Source: Escherichia phage BP32
DNA: 64,000 bases
Direction: 5' to 3' (one strand)
Sequence record: OR906198.1
Both the position numbers and the translations under genes were made by a program. The notes beneath the pieces were generated by a model. It worked only from the letters and a program-made list of their open reading frames with translations, was not told where the DNA came from and made no database searches. This document shows, piece after piece, positions 2,131 through 56,566 of the stretch (position 1 is its first letter; every line of letters starts with the position of its first letter).

Positions 2131-2160
2131 GTTTACAAGCATAAAGCTTTATGGTACTAT
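2131..2160 (+). promoter_or_regulatory. T4-type early (sigma70) promoter
   Basis: -35 GTTTAC (2131-2136), 18-bp spacer, -10 TACTAT with upstream TGG; A/T-rich upstream region. Confidence 0.65.
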
Positions 2161-4155: not shown

Positions 4156-4181
4156 CCGCTTTATACCAAGGATGGTATAAT
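4153..4181 (+). promoter_or_regulatory. candidate extended -10 promoter
   Basis: TGGTATAAT with weak -35; upstream of the 4211 gene. Confidence 0.4.
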
Positions 4182-5521: not shown

Positions 5522-6550
5522 ATGAAAACTCGTTCTCAAATTGAAGATATGGTTCGTAATGCCAGTTATACTCGTGATGTTATGACATTTTTGTGTGAAA
5601 ATAATTTAGACCTTAATAAAGTTAATTGTTCCATTCACGCCTTTAAACATCTGAATAGCAGTGAATGGGTGCGTAATTTTAGCGAAGCAGGGTATATTAC
5701 ACAAATGACGGCTCGTGAGCAGCTCACTGATTTCTGTAAAACTATCGATTATAAAAATCCTCTATTTGTTCAAGGCGTTGGTCAAAGTAAGGTCGATTTA
5801 TCATCTGGATTTTTTAATCCAAATCATTATCGTATTGAATGGAGATTTATTGCTCTGTTCCGCAAGCAACTAAAACAAATTTTATCAACTGCGAGTCGAT
5901 TAAAAGGTTCTGATATTAACTTAAAGAATCTGAAATTTGATGGTTATACTCTTCAGATGGAAGTAAGACCATTAAAAGAAAATAATAGAACTGCACGAAT
6001 TAGCTTTAAACCTAATACAAAAAATTCTCTTTCAATTTGTGAATGCCTTAAATCGCAGTTGACAGAAGCATTTAAGTATATGGATGTTGTTGCTGCTGTC
6101 CAGTCTAAGATTTCACAGCGTTTCGAACTATTTAAATTAGACACAACAACATATAAACTTGATATGATCGTTTCATTTAAATACGATTTTTTGAGAAAGG
6201 ACGAAGTCACACAAGAGAAAAAGCAGGAAGTGCAAGATAACTTAAATTTAAATTTATCCAATTACTCATCAAACGATCCTAAATTTTGGATGTATAGTTC
6301 AGGTAATAAAGATGCATGGAAATTCAATAAAGTGAATTTTCTTCCTATTGAAAATCCGAGTCTTAAACCTGTTGAAAAATGGCATGCAGATGCGATTGAA
6401 AAGTCTATCAAGGCAGTAGATGATGAACTCGTTAAAGCAACTAATGAAGTGTTAGAAGCTGAAAAGATGCTAGAAAAAGCTCAAGAAAAAGTCAAAAATC
6501 TCACGAAGCAACGTTCTAAACTGAACAATGCACTAAATGCACTGAACTAG
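5522..6550 (+). CDS. hypothetical protein with C-terminal coiled coil; paralogue array member 2 (342 aa)
   Basis: Track ORF; N-terminus MKTR..; motif FRKQLKQILSTASRL shared with next gene. Confidence 0.7.
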   Translation: MKTRSQIEDMVRNASYTRDVMTFLCENNLDLNKVNCSIHAFKHLNSSEWVRNFSEAGYITQMTAREQLTDFCKTIDYKNPLFVQGVGQSKVDLSSGFFNPNHYRIEWRFIALFRKQLKQILSTASRLKGSDINLKNLKFDGYTLQMEVRPLKENNRTARISFKPNTKNSLSICECLKSQLTEAFKYMDVVAAVQSKISQRFELFKLDTTTYKLDMIVSFKYDFLRKDEVTQEKKQEVQDNLNLNLSNYSSNDPKFWMYSSGNKDAWKFNKVNFLPIENPSLKPVEKWHADAIEKSIKAVDDELVKATNEVLEAEKMLEKAQEKVKNLTKQRSKLNNALNALN

Positions 6551-6579
6551 TTTACTTTACCACAGGGATGTGGTATAAT
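6550..6579 (+). promoter_or_regulatory. T4-type early promoter
   Basis: -35 GTTTAC, spacer TTTACCACAGGGATGTGG, -10 TATAAT. Confidence 0.65.
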
Positions 6580-6607
6580 GTTCTTACTTTCTACTGAGGA
6601 GATTAAT

Positions 6608-7609
6608 ATGACTCGTAACGAATATATCAAATCATTCAATAGCGTTATTGATGATAAAGCTATACCGATGTTTGGCCAAAATAGCGTTCTTTCTATTATC
6701 AATCAATGGCTCAATAGTGTTGATGCAGGTATTGTTTCTTCTACTAAATTTATTCATGAAATTCGTAAAATTTCTAGTCGTGTAGATAAAGATGTTATCA
6801 AGAAAACCTTTAAAGAGTCTCGTCTTCTTTCATATTTGGTTAATCGGGATATTCTTGGTAATTTTGGGAAAGAAATTAAACGAACCAAAGATGTAGTAGG
6901 ATATAATTGGTTCGGTGATGTTAATACTTATCATCTTAATACTAAAGAAGACCCTGAGAATATTTTTACTCGTCGTTGGGTTAGTGAATTTAGGAGTTTT
7001 ACGAAGCAAATTCTAAAATCAGCTTCTAAATTATGTTATGGCGATTATCGTCAAATTCATCCCTTAGCTGATGATATGATTATAGCAGAAGAATATGAGC
7101 TTGATAAAAACAAAGTAGCTATTTTTATTAATTACAGATTTTTTACACCAGAAACTAACCAAAGGAATATTAATAAATTTTTCTCAATTGCTAGCACTAT
7201 AACTCGTCAATTAGAGACTGCACTACTTTGTATGGAAACGGTAGAAAATATTCATACTTATCCTTTTAAGAATATGTGCGGCTGGGAAGGATATAAAATT
7301 GTAGTTAGTCTTCGTGAAGTGAAATGTGCTTATTCACCGACTGATAAAGAAATTTACCAACAAAAATGCGAAGAAATTGTGAATACTCCTAAAGAAGAAA
7401 CTACCCTTGAGGAACTAATGGAATGTCTTGATGATTCGCCTGAACCGGTAGAAATTCGTCCAGAAGTTATTGCATTAGAAAAAGCTTATAAAGAAGTTTT
7501 AGAAATTTCTAATAAAGCGCAGAAAGAATATGAGAAGGCTAAAAGGATTTGGGAAGAATCTGTTAATCGCTTGGATCGTCTTGAACAAGCTTTACAGTTA
7601 ATTAAGTAA
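6608..7609 (+). CDS. hypothetical protein with C-terminal coiled coil; paralogue array member 3 (333 aa)
   Basis: ATG after GGAGATTAAT; motif FRSFTKQILKSASKL; own early promoter upstream. Confidence 0.7.
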   Translation: MTRNEYIKSFNSVIDDKAIPMFGQNSVLSIINQWLNSVDAGIVSSTKFIHEIRKISSRVDKDVIKKTFKESRLLSYLVNRDILGNFGKEIKRTKDVVGYNWFGDVNTYHLNTKEDPENIFTRRWVSEFRSFTKQILKSASKLCYGDYRQIHPLADDMIIAEEYELDKNKVAIFINYRFFTPETNQRNINKFFSIASTITRQLETALLCMETVENIHTYPFKNMCGWEGYKIVVSLREVKCAYSPTDKEIYQQKCEEIVNTPKEETTLEELMECLDDSPEPVEIRPEVIALEKAYKEVLEISNKAQKEYEKAKRIWEESVNRLDRLEQALQLIK

Positions 7610-7639
7610 TTTAAAGCCAAGGATGGCTCGGAGTATAAA
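7610..7639 (+). promoter_or_regulatory. candidate promoter (sigma70-like or late-like TATAAAT)
   Basis: TTTAAA ... 18 bp ... TATAAA upstream of the 7662 gene. Confidence 0.35.
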
Positions 7640-7661
7640 TCATTAACTAAGTGAGAAGAAC

Positions 7662-14225: not shown

Positions 14226-14255
14226 GTTTACAAGAAGTTTAAACTGTGGTATTAT
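14226..14255 (+). promoter_or_regulatory. T4-type early promoter
   Basis: -35 GTTTAC, -10 TATTAT with upstream TGTGG. Confidence 0.6.
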
Positions 14256-20529: not shown

Positions 20530-20789
20530 CTTTTGATGAATTTAAAAATGTTATGATGAGTCAGCATTTTGAATGCGAAGTAAAAGATGATATTGGGCAT
20601 AAAGAAATTATTGAATATTGGTTTGAACCGTTAGAGGTTGAAGATAATTGTATTAAAAAGGTTACGGTCTGCACTGACTGGGCTGTATCTTTTAACTTCA
20701 ACATTTTAGATAATGACACACCTAAATCATTACAAGATATGGCTGTATCTTGTATTAAGGATGCATACTGTGAAGTTTTCGACATTTGA
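20526..20789 (+). CDS. hypothetical protein (87 aa)
   Basis: Track ORF; ATGA overlap with gene 47. Confidence 0.55.
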   Translation: MTFDEFKNVMMSQHFECEVKDDIGHKEIIEYWFEPLEVEDNCIKKVTVCTDWAVSFNFNILDNDTPKSLQDMAVSCIKDAYCEVFDI

Positions 20790-34342: not shown

Positions 34343-34371
34343 TTTACAAGCTGACAAGACTATGGTATAGT
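34342..34371 (+). promoter_or_regulatory. T4-type early promoter
   Basis: -35 GTTTAC overlapping the gene 41 stop, -10 TATAGT flanked by inverted repeat CAAGACT / AGTCTTG. Confidence 0.6.
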
Positions 34372-34401
34372 AGTCTTGTTGGTTAAATTGGGGAAATTAT
34401 T

Positions 34402-34839: not shown

Positions 34840-34869
34840 GTTTACAAGCTGATAGAGTTGTGTTATAGT
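34840..34869 (+). promoter_or_regulatory. T4-type early promoter
   Basis: -35 GTTTAC, -10 TATAGT flanked by inverted repeat GCTGATAG / CTATCAGC. Confidence 0.6.
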
Positions 34870-34900
34870 AATTCTATCAGCTAATCGCGGAGAAAAGAAA

Positions 34901-47470: not shown

Positions 47471-47500
47471 GTTTACAAACTCTTGGGACCAGAGTATAAT
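47471..47500 (+). promoter_or_regulatory. T4-type early promoter
   Basis: -35 GTTTAC, -10 TATAAT flanked by GGACC / GGTCC inverted repeat. Confidence 0.6.
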
Positions 47501-47544
47501 GGTCCTGTGGAGTATAAAATCTTTTTAACAAGTGAGAGATAACT

Positions 47545-49885: not shown

Positions 49886-49935
49886 CTTTATGATTACTGG
49901 AGTATAATATTCCCGAAACCAAACGAGGATAAGTG

Positions 49936-51753
49936 ATGATTAAGAATGAAATTAAAATTCTGAGCGATATTGAACATATCAAAAAGCGTAGCGGCATGTA
50001 CATTGGCTCTTCCGCTAATGAAATGCATGAGCGCTTTCTGTTTGGTAAATGGGAAAGTGTTCAGTATGTACCTGGTCTTGTTAAGCTTATTGATGAAATT
50101 ATTGATAACTCAGTAGATGAAGGTATTCGTACTAAGTTTAAATTCGCAAATAAAATTAATGTTACTATCAAAAACAATCAAGTAACAGTTGAAGATAACG
50201 GTCGTGGTATTCCACAAGCGATGGTTAAAACACCTACTGGTGAAGAAATTCCTGGTCCAGTTGCTGCCTGGACTATTCCAAAAGCAGGTGGTAACTTTGG
50301 TGATGATAAAGAACGCGTCACCGGTGGTATGAATGGTGTTGGTTCTAGTTTAACTAACATTTTTTCTGTGATGTTTGTCGGTGAAACCGGCGATGGTCAA
50401 AATAATATTGTAGTTCGTTGTTCAAATGGCATGGAAAATAAATCGTGGGAAACTATTCCTGGAAAATGGAAAGGAACTCGCGTTACTTTCATTCCCGATT
50501 TTATGTCATTTGAAACTAATGAGCTATCTCAGGTTTATCTTGACATTACACTAGATCGTCTCCAGACACTTGCGGTAGTTTATCCTGATATTCAATTTAC
50601 CTTTAACGGTAAAAAGGTTCAGGGTAATTTTAAGAAATATGCACGCCAATATGATGAACACGCTATCGTTCAAGAACAAGAAAATTGTTCTATTGCGGTT
50701 GGTCGTTCACCTGATGGTTTTCGTCAATTAACATACGTCAATAACATTCATACTAAGAATGGTGGCCATCACATTGACTGCGTTATGGATGATATTTGTG
50801 AAGACCTTATTCCACAAATCAAACGTAAATTCAAAATTGATGTAACTAAAGCACGTGTCAAAGAATGTTTGACTATCGTTATGTTTGTTCGTGATATGAA
50901 AAACATGCGATTTGATTCTCAAACTAAAGAGCGTCTGACTTCTCCATTTGGTGAAATCCGTAGTCATATTCAGCTTGATGCTAAAAAGATTTCACGTGCT
51001 ATTTTGAATAATGAAGCAATTTTAATGCCAATCATTGAAGCTGCCTTGGCTCGTAAATTGGCGGCAGAAAAAGCAGCAGAAACTAAAGCAGCTAAAAAGG
51101 CCTCTAAAGCTAAGGTTCATAAACACATTAAAGCGAATCTTTGCGGTAAAGATGCTGACACTACTCTTTTCTTGACTGAGGGTGATTCTGCTATCGGATA
51201 TCTTATTGATGTTCGTGATAAAGAACTTCATGGTGGTTATCCATTACGCGGTAAAGTTCTTAACAGCTGGGGTATGTCATATGCTGATATGCTTAAAAAC
51301 AAAGAACTGTTTGATATTTGCGCAATCACTGGATTAGTTCTTGGCGAAAAAGCTGAAAACTTGAATTATCATAATATTGCTATTATGACCGATGCTGATC
51401 ATGATGGTCTAGGAAGCATTTATCCTTCTCTGCTCGGATTTTTTAGTAATTGGCCAGAACTGTTTGAACAAGGAAGAATTCGCTTTGTCAAAACTCCTGT
51501 AATCATCGCTCAGGTCGGTAAAAAACAAGAATGGTTTTATACAGTCGCTGAATATGAGAGTGCCAAAGATGCTCTACCTAAACATAGCATCCGTTATATT
51601 AAGGGGCTTGGCTCTTTGGAAAAATCTGAATATCGCGAGATGATTCAAAACCCAGTATATGATGTTGTTAAACTTCCTGAGAATTGGAAAGAGCTTTTTG
51701 AAATGCTCATGGGAGATAATGCTGACCTTCGTAAAGAATGGATGAGCCAGTAG
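49936..51753 (+). CDS. 39: DNA topoisomerase II large subunit gp39, fused T2/T6 type (covers T4 gp39 plus gp60)
   Basis: 605 aa from MIKNEIKILSDIEHIKKRSGMYIGS; GyrB-like ATPase plus TOPRIM in one ORF, whereas T4 gp39 is shorter with a separate gene 60. Confidence 0.9.
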   Translation: MIKNEIKILSDIEHIKKRSGMYIGSSANEMHERFLFGKWESVQYVPGLVKLIDEIIDNSVDEGIRTKFKFANKINVTIKNNQVTVEDNGRGIPQAMVKTPTGEEIPGPVAAWTIPKAGGNFGDDKERVTGGMNGVGSSLTNIFSVMFVGETGDGQNNIVVRCSNGMENKSWETIPGKWKGTRVTFIPDFMSFETNELSQVYLDITLDRLQTLAVVYPDIQFTFNGKKVQGNFKKYARQYDEHAIVQEQENCSIAVGRSPDGFRQLTYVNNIHTKNGGHHIDCVMDDICEDLIPQIKRKFKIDVTKARVKECLTIVMFVRDMKNMRFDSQTKERLTSPFGEIRSHIQLDAKKISRAILNNEAILMPIIEAALARKLAAEKAAETKAAKKASKAKVHKHIKANLCGKDADTTLFLTEGDSAIGYLIDVRDKELHGGYPLRGKVLNSWGMSYADMLKNKELFDICAITGLVLGEKAENLNYHNIAIMTDADHDGLGSIYPSLLGFFSNWPELFEQGRIRFVKTPVIIAQVGKKQEWFYTVAEYESAKDALPKHSIRYIKGLGSLEKSEYREMIQNPVYDVVKLPENWKELFEMLMGDNADLRKEWMSQ

Positions 51754-51782
51754 TTTACTTTACCACAAGGATGTGGTATAAT
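51753..51782 (+). promoter_or_regulatory. T4-type early promoter
   Basis: -35 GTTTAC overlapping the gene 39 stop, spacer TTTACCACAAGGATGTGG, -10 TATAAT. Confidence 0.65.
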
Positions 51783-51807
51783 TAATTGGGCAAATGAGGA
51801 TATTGAA

Positions 51808-52011
51808 ATGAAATCATATAGAGTAAATTTAGAACTTTTTGATAAAGCAGTTCATCGAGAATATAGAATCATTCAACGCTTTTTCGATATGGGAGAAGCC
51901 GAAGAGTTTAAAAACCGCTTTAAGGATATTAGAGATAAAATTCAATCTGACACCGCAACTAAAGATGAACTACTAGAAGTTGCTGAAGTTATTAAACGCA
52001 ATATGAATTAA
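51808..52011 (+). CDS. hypothetical protein (67 aa), rIIA.1 position
   Basis: Track ORF between 39 and rIIA. Confidence 0.55.
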
Positions 52012-55177: not shown

Positions 55178-55372
55178 ATGTTAGGTTATCAAGCACGAGT
55201 AAAAGAAGAATACGATCAATTAATGCTCAAAATTAATGCACTGAGCAAATTTTTAGAAAGCACAAAGTTTCTAACTATTAATGAAGTTGAACAAGAATTG
55301 CTGCTTTCACAGTTTATCTCAATGAAATCTTACGCAGATTGTTTAGAGAAAAGAATTGCACAATTCAAATAA
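55178..55372 (+). CDS. hypothetical protein (64 aa)
   Basis: Track ORF flanked on both sides by near-identical hairpins. Confidence 0.6.
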   Translation: MLGYQARVKEEYDQLMLKINALSKFLESTKFLTINEVEQELLLSQFISMKSYADCLEKRIAQFK

Positions 55373-55374
55373 TT

Positions 55375-55398
55375 AAGGGGCTTCGGCCCTTTTGTTTT
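55375..55398 (+). terminator. rho-independent terminator
   Basis: AAGGGGC-TTCG-GCCCTT hairpin followed by TTTGTTTT. Confidence 0.7.
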
Positions 55399-56245: not shown

Positions 56246-56275
56246 GTTTACATACCACAAGGACCGTGGTACTAT
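56246..56275 (+). promoter_or_regulatory. T4-type early promoter
   Basis: -35 GTTTAC, spacer with CCACAAGGACCGTGG, -10 TACTAT. Confidence 0.65.
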
Positions 56276-56302
56276 ACAACTATCAGCTACGGAGGAGTAA
56301 AA

Positions 56303-56566
56303 ATGAAATTTAAATTTTATTACGCTAAACATAAAATAACTGATGAGTTTGTGTCAGTTGAATATTCTAGCGACGATGAAGGTATGATTTATACTCGCTT
56401 GGGACTATCGCATTGGGAGTCTGATACGCCTTATTTTTCAACTCCCGAAGAAATTACACGCTTAGTTAATGGTCATATGAATGACCACTGGAATGTAATT
56501 CTTTCAGATAGTCTTAAAGCGGCTATTAATAGTAATGAAATGAAAATCGCTGAGATTGAACTATGA
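56303..56566 (+). CDS. hypothetical protein (87 aa)
   Basis: ATG at 56303 after ACGGAGGAGTAAAA; track start 56210 runs through the promoter. Confidence 0.6.
   Translation: MKFKFYYAKHKITDEFVSVEYSSDDEGMIYTRLGLSHWESDTPYFSTPEEITRLVNGHMNDHWNVILSDSLKAAINSNEMKIAEIEL

What the first reader, a model, noticed from the sequence alone, without database searches (positions are those of the whole stretch)
6556..6573. Recurrent CCACA-AGG-TGTGG palindromic spacer in a subset of early promoters
Several early promoters carry a near-palindromic spacer immediately upstream of the -10: TTTACCACAGGGATGTGG (6556-6573), TTTACCACAAGGATGTGG (51759-51776), CCACAAGGACCGTGG (56255-56269), and related forms TACCAAGGATGGTA (about 4163-4176) and AGCCAAGGATGGCT (about 7617-7630). 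The dyad around AAGGA is conserved beyond what the extended -10 (TGTGG) alone requires. It may be part of the known T4 early-promoter consensus or a distinct protein-binding dyad; I cannot resolve which from memory.
Basis: seen in the sequence. Interest (0 to 1): 0.35.

Follow-up and report, generated by a model that had tools for sequence, protein, structure and literature searches.

The report
GGA-loop hairpin inside T4-type promoters
The mirror-image sequence inside some early promoters of this T4-like phage is real and evolutionarily maintained: it is the known "promoter plus stem-loop" (PeSL) arrangement, but with a conserved GGA loop that looks like the RNA site bound by the host regulator CsrA, a link that is untested.

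Summary
The window is the early region of a Tequatrovirus (T4-like coliphage). All five cited sequences exist and are kept at the same places in T4. Three lie in the 18-nt spacer of early promoters (GTTTAC-N18-TAnnnT). One lies in the mapped T4 middle promoter PnrdC.7. One has no -35 box.

The 5' half (CCACA) is not part of the early-promoter consensus, so the dyad is a separate feature.

Beyond what those papers' text says:
- In 140 unique early-promoter regions from seven Tevenvirinae genera, 37 have a spacer hairpin of at least 5 bp.
- 27 of these carry GGA in the loop on the sense strand, and none carry TCC. Column permutation gives 1.7 +/- 1.3.
- Stems differ between orthologous loci while staying paired.
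- The hairpin also occurs without a promoter.

This argues for a single-strand (RNA) hairpin on read-through transcripts, not a double-stranded DNA operator. ACA(A/G)GGAUGU matches the CsrA SELEX consensus exactly over its conserved core. CsrA binding is an untested inference.

I class it as a new variant of a known kind.

The parts
6550..6579 (+). Early promoter upstream of the nrdC.4 homologue. -35 GTTTAC at 6550-6555, 18-nt spacer, -10 TATAAT at 6574-6579. The G of the upstream stop codon TAG (6548-6550) is the first base of the -35 box.
   Evidence: orthologue of T4 Pe at 50949
6558..6575 (+). Hairpin TACCACA-GGGA-TGTGGTA. As RNA it reads ACAGGGAUGU. The 3' arm overlaps the extended -10 and the first two bases of the -10 box.
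   Evidence: present in the minimum-energy fold; flagged as terminator-like
6596..6610 (+). Shine-Dalgarno GAGGAG (6596-6601) and ATG (6608-6610) of the downstream gene. This gives a second GGA about 31 nt after the loop GGA.
51753..51782 (+). Early promoter upstream of rIIA.1/rIIA. -35 GTTTAC at 51753-51758, -10 TATAAT at 51777-51782. It overlaps the stop codon TAG (51751-51753) of the fused gene 39+60.
   Evidence: T4 Pe at 2434
51761..51778 (+). Hairpin TACCACA-AGGA-TGTGGTA. As RNA it reads ACAAGGAUGU.
   Evidence: The surrounding 30-mer promoter (GTTTAC to TATAAT), which contains this hairpin, matches 783 phage records, about two places each; 575 are exact or near-exact
51796..51810 (+). 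Shine-Dalgarno GAGGA (51796-51800) and ATG (51808-51810) of rIIA.1.
56246..56275 (+). Early promoter after denB (GTTTAC at 56246-56251, TACTAT at 56270-56275). It contains the hairpin TACCAC-AAGGACC-GTGGTA (56253-56271).
   Evidence: The hairpin is not in the minimum-energy fold of the 80-nt context
4158..4181 (+). Middle promoter PnrdC.7. MotA box GCTTTA at 4158-4163, -10 TATAAT at 4176-4181. It contains the hairpin TTATACCA-AGGA-TGGTATAA (4161-4180).
   Evidence: T4 start site 53325. The sequence is identical in T4, T2, TH57 and VR5
7615..7628 (+). Hairpin AGCCA-AGGA-TGGCT, 6 nt after the stop codon of the nrdC.4 homologue. There is no -35 box. It is followed by CGGAG and TATAAAT (7634-7640).
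   Evidence: same as T4 49906

Best explanation
The dyad is the DNA image of a small stem-loop written into the spacer of a strong early promoter. That is the PeSL (promoter-early stem-loop) arrangement already described for T4-type phages.

The hairpin lies upstream of that promoter's own start site. It can therefore form only on transcripts that read through from upstream early promoters, or on transiently single-stranded DNA.

Selection keeps (a) the pairing and (b) an A-N-G-G-A loop on the sense strand. The stem sequence itself is free to change.

The most likely mechanism is that on read-through polycistronic RNA the hairpin displays GGA to a loop-specific RNA-binding factor. The best candidate is host CsrA. 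Its dimer could bridge the loop GGA and the GGA of the downstream Shine-Dalgarno sequence about 30 nt away. This would set translation or stability of the downstream cistron differently for read-through RNA than for promoter-proximal RNA.

Shown: the element, its enrichment, its strand specificity, the change of stems between orthologous loci, and its occurrence without a promoter. Inferred: that it acts as RNA.

The confidence given (0.55) is for the whole statement up to 'a loop-specific reader on read-through RNA'. That it is a selected PeSL-class hairpin I hold at about 0.9.
For: - Known frame. [quoted passage not shown] They were extended to T4/PST and to middle promoters (PMC4122927).
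- Dyads are enriched in T4 early promoters. 13 of 34 have at least 6 perfect pairs, against 5.1 +/- 2.1 under column permutation (0 of 500).
- Seven genera, 140 unique GTTTAC-N18-TAnnnT regions. 37 have a spacer hairpin of at least 5 bp (null 18.8 +/- 4.0). 27 have GGA in the loop and none has TCC (null 1.7 +/- 1.3, maximum 7 in 1000). 21 of the 27 are A-N-GGA and 14 fit C[ANGGAN]G.
- Orthologous loci keep the hairpin with different stems. Upstream of nrdC.4: CCACA/TGTGG (T4, window), TTCCA/TGGAG (TH57), CATCC/GGATG (VR5), CAACC/GGTTG (WFK). Upstream of nrdB in four genera: GCTC/GAGC, TGACTC/GAGTCA, GACC/GGTT, ACTC/GAGT.
- Stand-alone copy with no promoter, between a stop codon and AGGAGG: TATCACA-AGGA-TGTGATA in TH57, with a C-G to T-A double change. 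Its VR5 orthologue has a T.G pair.
- At the gene 39 stop codon, other genera have unrelated hairpins and no promoter.
- The hairpin is in the minimum-energy RNA fold at 4 of the 5 sites, with GGA in the apical loop.
- CsrA consensus is RUACARGGAUGU with ACA and GGA invariant and GGA in a hairpin loop (PMC4347634). CLIP-seq gives AUGGA/ANGGA in apical loops (PMC5207318).
Against: - No RNA-level data. The public runs holding this sequence are kept only as assembled contigs and say nothing about RNA ends or binding.
- Part of the CsrA match comes free. UGU(G) is the extended -10 consensus, and any hairpin using it as its 3' arm has ACA opposite. Only the RGGA loop is independent information at these two sites.
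- The first two consensus positions (RU) are CC here.
- G.T pairs are no commoner on the sense strand than on the antisense strand (8 against 6 extra hairpins). Wobble pairs therefore do not show that RNA rather than DNA is the folded form.
- Folding energies are unremarkable (z from -0.4 to -1.8).
- The promoter's own transcripts lack the hairpin, so any effect depends on the amount of read-through.
- The RB49 PeSLs of another coliphage use GGGGATC-N3-GATCCCC with loops that are not GGA. A GGA reader therefore cannot explain PeSL hairpins in general.
- Many copies may share ancestry, so the counts are not independent events.
Confidence: 0.55

Rival explanations
1. Plain PeSL terminator or attenuator. 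The hairpin only stops or dampens transcription coming from upstream genes (or protects the upstream mRNA's 3' end). The loop sequence has no reader.
For: An RB49 PeSL stem-loop reduced read-through like a strong terminator in a reporter (PMC2839356). At the orthologous gene 39 stop, Mosigvirus has AGCTCC-ttcg-GGAGCT followed by a T-run, annotated as a terminator. Site 6558-6575 passes a simple terminator scan. Some GenBank records annotate 'promoter | terminator' at this spot.
Against: It does not explain 27 of 37 loops holding GGA against 0 TCC, or why loops stay fixed while stems change. Site 51761-51778 fails the terminator scan. The stems have 5-7 pairs, only 2-3 of them G-C, and are followed by UAUAAU rather than a U-run. 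The stand-alone copy is followed directly by AGGAGG.
Confidence: 0.2
2. Double-stranded DNA operator. A dimeric phage or host protein binds the palindrome in the promoter spacer, for example to shut off early transcription.
For: [quoted passage not shown] How T4 early transcription is shut off is not known (PMC2988021). The same 18-nt spacer recurs at unrelated loci and in other genera.
Against: Half-site sequences are not conserved; they co-vary. The conserved centre is asymmetric and strand-specific. The register relative to the -10 box shifts by 1-6 nt. The element also lies after a -10 box or with no promoter. Only a minority of early promoters carry it.
Confidence: 0.05
3. DNA-level hairpin or cruciform. 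It serves recombination (PeSL-mediated shuffling, mini-circles) or promoter melting, and is read as single-stranded DNA.
For: The PeSL papers localised one crossover within the loop and speculated about a site-specific DNA-binding protein. The identical cassette sits at non-orthologous loci in T4 and in the Klebsiella phage KPN6, and a near-identical one (28/30) in a Rosemountvirus. The wobble-pair test does not favour RNA over DNA.
Against: Stems of 5-7 bp are short for cruciform extrusion. A stand-alone copy between a stop codon and a Shine-Dalgarno sequence fits an mRNA element better. No reader of GGA-loop DNA is known in T4.
Confidence: 0.1
4. No function. The near-identical promoters are paralogous copies spread by recombination, and the palindrome is a passenger.
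For: The promoters at 6548-6579 and 51751-51782 are identical at 31 of 32 bases. The nrdC.3 to nrdC.8 genes are tandem paralogues, so their intergenic hairpins may be copies.
Against: Pairing is kept through double changes at orthologous loci across seven genera. Hairpin and GGA-loop counts far exceed permutation nulls. Stems have diverged almost completely while GGA has not.
Confidence: 0.05

Closest known systems
PeSL / PmSL cassettes (promoter-early or promoter-middle stem-loops) of T4-type phages (Arbiol et al. 2010, PMC2839356; Comeau et al. 2014, PMC4122927)
   Same: A strong sigma-70-type early promoter in a short gap between genes, with an AT-rich upstream stretch. [quoted passage not shown] A Shine-Dalgarno sequence and start codon follow. 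There are many copies, concentrated in the variable (nrdC, ndd) regions. A middle-promoter version exists.
   Different: The text of those papers describes stems (GGGG...CCCC in RB49; 'AGNA-loop-TCNT' in PST/T4) and a terminator and recombination role. It does not describe a conserved, strand-specific A-N-GGA loop or any link to CsrA. RB49 PeSLs checked here have other loops. I could not see their figures, so I cannot say whether these particular promoters are drawn there.
High-affinity CsrA/RsmA(E) binding hairpins (SELEX consensus RUACARGGAUGU; AUGGA/ANGGA in apical loops; the CAGGAUG-type repeats of CsrB, recalled from memory)
   Same: A short hairpin with GGA in the apical loop. ACA-R-GGA-UGU is matched exactly at 6562-6571 and 51765-51774. 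The core CA-N-GGA-N-G is matched at 4167 and 7618. A second GGA lies in the downstream Shine-Dalgarno sequence, within the distance a CsrA dimer can bridge (the 10-63 nt range is recalled from memory).
   Different: The hairpin is located inside promoter DNA and is absent from that promoter's own transcript. No binding or regulation has been shown. Positions 1-2 of the consensus are not matched.
T4 early-promoter consensus (UP element / GTTTAC / TGn / TATAAT; Hinton 2010, PMC2988021)
   Same: The 3' arm TGTGG(TA) is the extended -10 plus the start of the -10 box.
   Different: The 5' arm and the AGGA centre are not consensus positions.

Membership tests
PeSL cassette | Strong sigma-70-type early promoter (-35, about 17-18 nt, -10) with an AT-rich upstream stretch, in a short gap between genes | tested here: met
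   GTTTAC-N18-TATAAT/TACTAT at 6550-6579, 51753-51782 and 56246-56275. Weight-matrix scores are 33-59 bits. Each starts at or just after the upstream stop codon.
PeSL cassette | [quoted passage not shown] | tested here: met
   5-8 perfect pairs at all five sites. The hairpin is in the minimum-energy fold at four of the five.
PeSL cassette | Shine-Dalgarno sequence and start codon of the next gene at the 3' end | tested here: met
   GAGGAG then ATG at 6596-6610; GAGGA then ATG at 51796-51810; GGAGGAG then ATG at 56291-56305.
PeSL cassette | The stem-loop terminates or attenuates upstream transcription | not testable with these tools
   Only a pattern scan was possible. Site 6558-6575 passes it and 51761-51778 does not. 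The RNA runs are contigs only.
PeSL cassette | Repeated element that marks sites of gene shuffling | tested here: inconclusive
   The same cassette lies at non-orthologous loci in T4, KPN6 and a Rosemountvirus. No breakpoints were mapped.
CsrA/RsmA binding site | GGA, preferably A-N-GGA, matching RUACARGGAUGU with ACA and GGA invariant | tested here: met
   ACAGGGAUGU at 6562-6571 and ACAAGGAUGU at 51765-51774. CAAGGAUG at 4167 and 7618. Consensus taken from PMC4347634.
CsrA/RsmA binding site | GGA presented in the apical loop of a short hairpin | tested here: met
   Across genera, 27 of 37 spacer hairpins have GGA in the loop.
CsrA/RsmA binding site | The site is present on a cellular RNA | tested here: inconclusive
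   It lies upstream of the local start site, so it needs read-through from upstream promoters. Contigs of runs labelled 'RNA?' span the site, but they may derive from DNA.
CsrA/RsmA binding site | Binding by CsrA and a regulatory effect | not testable with these tools
   No experiment or CLIP data set of T4-infected cells was found.
Early-promoter consensus element | Conserved at a fixed position in most early promoters | tested here: not met
   There is no information at spacer positions 4-13 in the T4 matrix. 3 of about 36 promoters carry it.
Palindromic double-stranded DNA operator | Conserved half-site sequence, fixed spacing, symmetric on both strands | tested here: not met
   Half-sites co-vary. 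The centre is asymmetric, GGA 27 against TCC 0. The register shifts.
Intrinsic terminator | G+C-rich stem followed by a U-run | tested here: inconclusive
   2-3 G-C pairs per stem. The tails are UAUAAUG... and UAUAAUUAAUU. One of two sites passes the scan.

The most novel reading that the evidence does not exclude
T-even-type phages of enterobacteria write a high-affinity host-CsrA hairpin (C-ANGGAN-G) into the spacer of some early and middle promoters. One 30-bp stretch would then be a promoter as DNA and a CsrA operator as RNA. Only transcripts arriving from upstream carry the operator, while locally started transcripts escape. Each gene would thus give two mRNA classes with different translation or stability, and the phage's early RNA could also titrate CsrA.
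Probability: 0.3. Interest if true: 0.8.

Novelty: new variant of a known kind. Interest (0 to 1): 0.6.

Why it matters
T4 is the reference system for phage gene regulation. Even so, why many early promoters hold stem-loops, and how expression from overlapping read-through and local transcripts is balanced, is not settled.

A conserved, strand-specific GGA loop turns a vague 'promoter with a palindrome' into a concrete hypothesis that is cheap to test: a host global RNA regulator, or an unknown phage GGA reader, acts on T4 early mRNA.

If true, it would be a new case of dual coding (promoter in DNA, operator in RNA) and a new host-phage contact point. If false, the element remains a well-defined subclass of PeSL hairpins whose loop constraint still needs an explanation.

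Tried and rejected
- T4 early-promoter consensus. Rejected: the 5' half and the AGGA centre are not conserved columns.
- RegB site (GGAG). Rejected: the loops read GGAU, GGAA or GGAC. In the 29 regex-selected unique family members, G never follows GGA. In the unbiased set it does in 4 of 27.
- Shine-Dalgarno mimic or ribosome standby site. Considered less likely: AUGGA and ACGGA loops pair poorly with the anti-SD sequence.
- RNA evidence. The 20 listed runs are kept as Logan contigs only. The contigs merely break at the 32-nt repeated promoter. A T4 locus could not be sent to the run finder.
- IMG/VR scans gave only 3-5 near-identical T4-like contigs, which is too little variation.
- Wobble-pair asymmetry as a test of RNA against DNA gave no signal.
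- The covariation count on alignment A1 looks strong (86% paired, 0 of 500 shuffles). It is partly circular, because the rows were chosen by a CA.GGA.G pattern and at least 4 flanking pairs. I use it only to show the diversity of stems.
- Miller et al. 2003 (the list of T4 promoters) and the PeSL supplements and figures are not held, so I could not check whether these exact promoters were already drawn as PeSLs.

Full report
**What the window is.** A 3-kb piece matches 657 phage records, nearly all Tequatrovirus, at up to 96.6% identity. The gene order (nrdC.8 ... nrdC.3 ... 39 - rIIA.1 - rIIA - rIIB - denB ...) shows that the + strand of the window is the minus (early-sense) strand of T4.

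**The observation.** All five sequences are present.

| Coordinates | Hairpin |
|---|---|
| 6558-6575 | TACCACA-ggga-TGTGGTA |
| 51761-51778 | TACCACA-agga-TGTGGTA |
| 56253-56271 | TACCAC-aaggacc-GTGGTA |
| 4161-4180 | TTATACCA-agga-TGGTATAA |
| 7615-7628 | AGCCA-agga-TGGCT |

- The first three lie in the 18-nt spacer of promoters of the form GTTTAC-N18-TA(T/C)(A/T)AT.
- The fourth is not an early promoter. It has GCTTTA, then 12 nt, then TATAAT, and it is the orthologue of the mapped T4 middle promoter PnrdC.7, start site 53325.
- The fifth has no -35 box and is followed by a late-like TATAAAT.
- Each site begins 0-20 nt after the stop codon of the upstream gene.
- All five are kept at orthologous places in T4.
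- The exact 14-mer occurs twice, against 0.24 expected.
- In all of T4, the only hairpins with at least 5 pairs and an AGGA tetraloop are these four sites, all on the early-sense strand.

**Is it the promoter consensus?** No. A weight matrix from 39 T4 seed sites gives the consensus ...aaAgTtGTTTACat..c.......ttGTGgTATtAT. There is no information where CCACAAGGA lies. The 3' arm TGTGG(TA) is the extended -10 plus the -10 box. The 5' arm is present in only 3 of about 36 T4 early promoters.

**Is dyad symmetry a feature of these promoters?** Yes.
- In T4, 13 of 34 distinct early promoters have an inverted repeat of at least 6 perfect pairs between the -35 box and +20. Shuffling columns among promoters gives 5.1 +/- 2.1 (0 of 500).
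- 8 have at least 7 pairs, against 1.4 +/- 1.1.
- The repeats differ in sequence and position. Some lie inside the spacer, others bridge the -10 box (for example 34354-34379 and 34847-34882).

This is what Arbiol et al. (2010) and Comeau et al. (2014) called PeSLs. [quoted passage not shown] They were shown for one RB49 example to cut read-through like a terminator, and were proposed to mediate gene shuffling. Comeau et al. extended them to T4/PST and to middle promoters, and their figure 5 covers the 43-53 kb (nrdC) region of PST. The finding therefore belongs to a known kind.

**What the comparison with other genera adds.** I fetched whole genomes of six further Tevenvirinae genera: Gaprivervirus TH57, Dhakavirus VR5, Jiaodavirus KPN6, Mosigvirus WFK, Moonvirus CF1 and Gelderlandvirus S16.

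With T4 included, there are 140 unique GTTTAC-N18-TAnnnT regions:
- 37 have a hairpin of at least 5 pairs inside the spacer (column-permutation null 18.8 +/- 4.0).
- 27 of those 37 have GGA in the loop on the sense strand, and none has TCC (null 1.7 +/- 1.3, maximum 7 in 1000).
- No loop sequence was required in that search.
- 21 of the 27 read A-N-GGA and 14 fit C[ANGGAN]G.
- The stems are very different: TACCACA, CACCA, ACACA, CAACCA, CATCC, ACACC, ATCCAC, ACATCC, ACGGCA and others.

At orthologous loci the hairpin is kept while the stem is replaced:

| Locus | Stems |
|---|---|
| Upstream of nrdC.4 | CCACA/TGTGG (T4, T2, window); TTCCA/TGGAG (TH57); CATCC/GGATG (VR5); CAACC/GGTTG (WFK) |
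| Upstream of nrdB, just after a MotA-type -10 box | GCTC/GAGC; TGACTC/GAGTCA; GACC/GGTT; ACTC/GAGT |

In TH57 one copy (TATCACA-agga-TGTGATA, a C-G to T-A double change) stands between a stop codon and AGGAGG with no promoter at all. Its VR5 orthologue is ATCACA-cgga-TGTGGT.

Directly after the gene 39 stop codon, where this phage has the rIIA.1 promoter-hairpin, other genera have unrelated hairpins and no promoter. One of them has a UUCG loop and a T-run.

The very same spacer TTTACCACAAGGATGTGG occurs at non-orthologous loci in the Klebsiella phage KPN6. The 30-mer promoter matches 783 phage records, usually at two places each. One match, at 28 of 30 bases, is in a 52-kb Rosemountvirus.

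**What this means.**
- A double-stranded DNA operator needs conserved half-sites. Here the half-sites drift and the asymmetric centre is what is conserved, on one strand only.
- A promoter element needs a fixed position. Here the element slides within the spacer, sits after a -10 box, or has no promoter.
- The pattern is that of a single-stranded hairpin with a sequence-specific loop.
- The hairpin lies upstream of the local start site (for PnrdC.7 this is mapped). Only read-through transcripts from upstream early promoters can carry it.
- That the folded form is RNA rather than DNA is an inference. G.T pairs are not commoner on the sense strand, and no read-level RNA data were available.

**The CsrA resemblance.** The CsrA SELEX consensus is RUACARGGAUGU, with ACA and GGA invariant and GGA in a hairpin loop. 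CLIP-seq in Salmonella gave AUGGA/ANGGA in apical loops.
- The window's two main copies read ACAAGGAUGU and ACAGGGAUGU.
- The other two tetraloop sites read CAAGGAUG.
- Other genera read CAUGGAAG, CAUGGAUG and CAAGGACG.
- The downstream Shine-Dalgarno sequence supplies a second GGA about 30 nt away.

Caveats:
- UGU is already required by the extended -10 box, and ACA follows from pairing with it. At these two sites only the RGGA loop is independent.
- Positions 1-2 of the consensus do not match.
- Binding is untested.
- RB49 PeSLs (GGGGATC-N3-GATCCCC) do not have GGA loops, so this is a property of a subclass.
- I found no paper linking CsrA to T4 hairpins. One T4 omics paper notes that CsrB stays stable during infection.

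**Other checks.**
- RNA folding places four of the five hairpins in the minimum-energy structure, with modest z-scores.
- A pattern scan calls 6558-6575 terminator-like but not 51761-51778.
- A covariation count on 29 family members shows five of six pairs with double changes. The rows were selected for pairing and for the loop pattern, so it only illustrates stem diversity.

**Earlier notes of this scan.** Earlier AI notes from this scan describe the same element in other T4-like windows and reach the same PeSL and CsrA reading. I reached it before reading them. They are not independent evidence.

**Verdict.** The 'consensus' option is refuted. The 'distinct dyad' option is supported, but as a hairpin of the PeSL class with a conserved GGA loop. 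The CsrA reading is plausible, specific and untested.

Noticed in passing
window 34354-34379, 34847-34882, 47486-47505: Other early promoters carry inverted repeats that bridge the -10 box instead of lying in the spacer: ACAAGACT..TATAGT..AGTCTTGT; AGCTGATAGA..TCTATCAGCT, with 10 pairs; GGACC..TATAAT..GGTCC. The T4 paralogues at 20588 and 57966 differ by a compensating C-G to T-A change in this stem.
   Followed up: partly
window 2140-2153: A perfect 14-bp palindrome, CATAAAGCTTTATG, lies in an early-promoter spacer. The same sequence is in T4 promoters at 55360 and 146851 and in Moonvirus CF1. Its loop is AGCT, not GGA. A related AGTTTAAACT lies at 14236-14245. (Notebook entry 4 gives 2134-2147 for this palindrome; the checked coordinates are 2140-2153.)
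   Followed up: partly
window 49933-51753: The topoisomerase large subunit is one 606-aa gene (39 fused with 60). It lacks the gene 60 bypass, 60.1 and mobA insert of T4, as in T2 and RB14.
   Followed up: no
window promoters with -10 at 2155, 3594, 28903, 56270, 59907: A repeated promoter-plus-leader cassette. An AT-rich '...TTTTCACAAAAC' stretch, then GTTTAC-N18-TACTAT, is followed by a near-identical leader, ACAACTATCAACTAC(T/G)GA. T4 holds at least eight copies. Only the spacer differs between copies.
   Followed up: no
window 6548-6579 and 51751-51782: The two promoters are identical at 31 of 32 bases. Public assemblies (Logan contigs) break or branch exactly at this repeat. One strain variant there is C to T at 51763, which turns a C-G pair into a T.G pair.
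   Followed up: partly
L084 (Salmonella phage rivia, Rosemountvirus) 403-432: A 52-kb phage that is not T4-like has GTATAC-TTTACCACAAGGAAGTGG-TATAAT between a stop codon and the Shine-Dalgarno sequence of a DEAD-box helicase gene. This is the same promoter-hairpin, with the loop C[AAGGAA]G.
   Followed up: partly
window 55375-55392: A classic UUCG-tetraloop terminator, AAGGGGC-TTCG-GCCCTTT with a T-run, follows the ORF downstream of rIIB. TTCG is the commonest tetraloop among hairpins of at least 5 pairs (17 in T4, 9 in the window).
   Followed up: no
RB49 (NC_005066) e.g. 121708-121736, 115005-115033: RB49 PeSL spacers are GGGGATC-N3-GATCCCC. Each stem therefore holds two GATC (Dam) sites. 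The loops are GGT, ACC, ACG or GGC.
   Followed up: no
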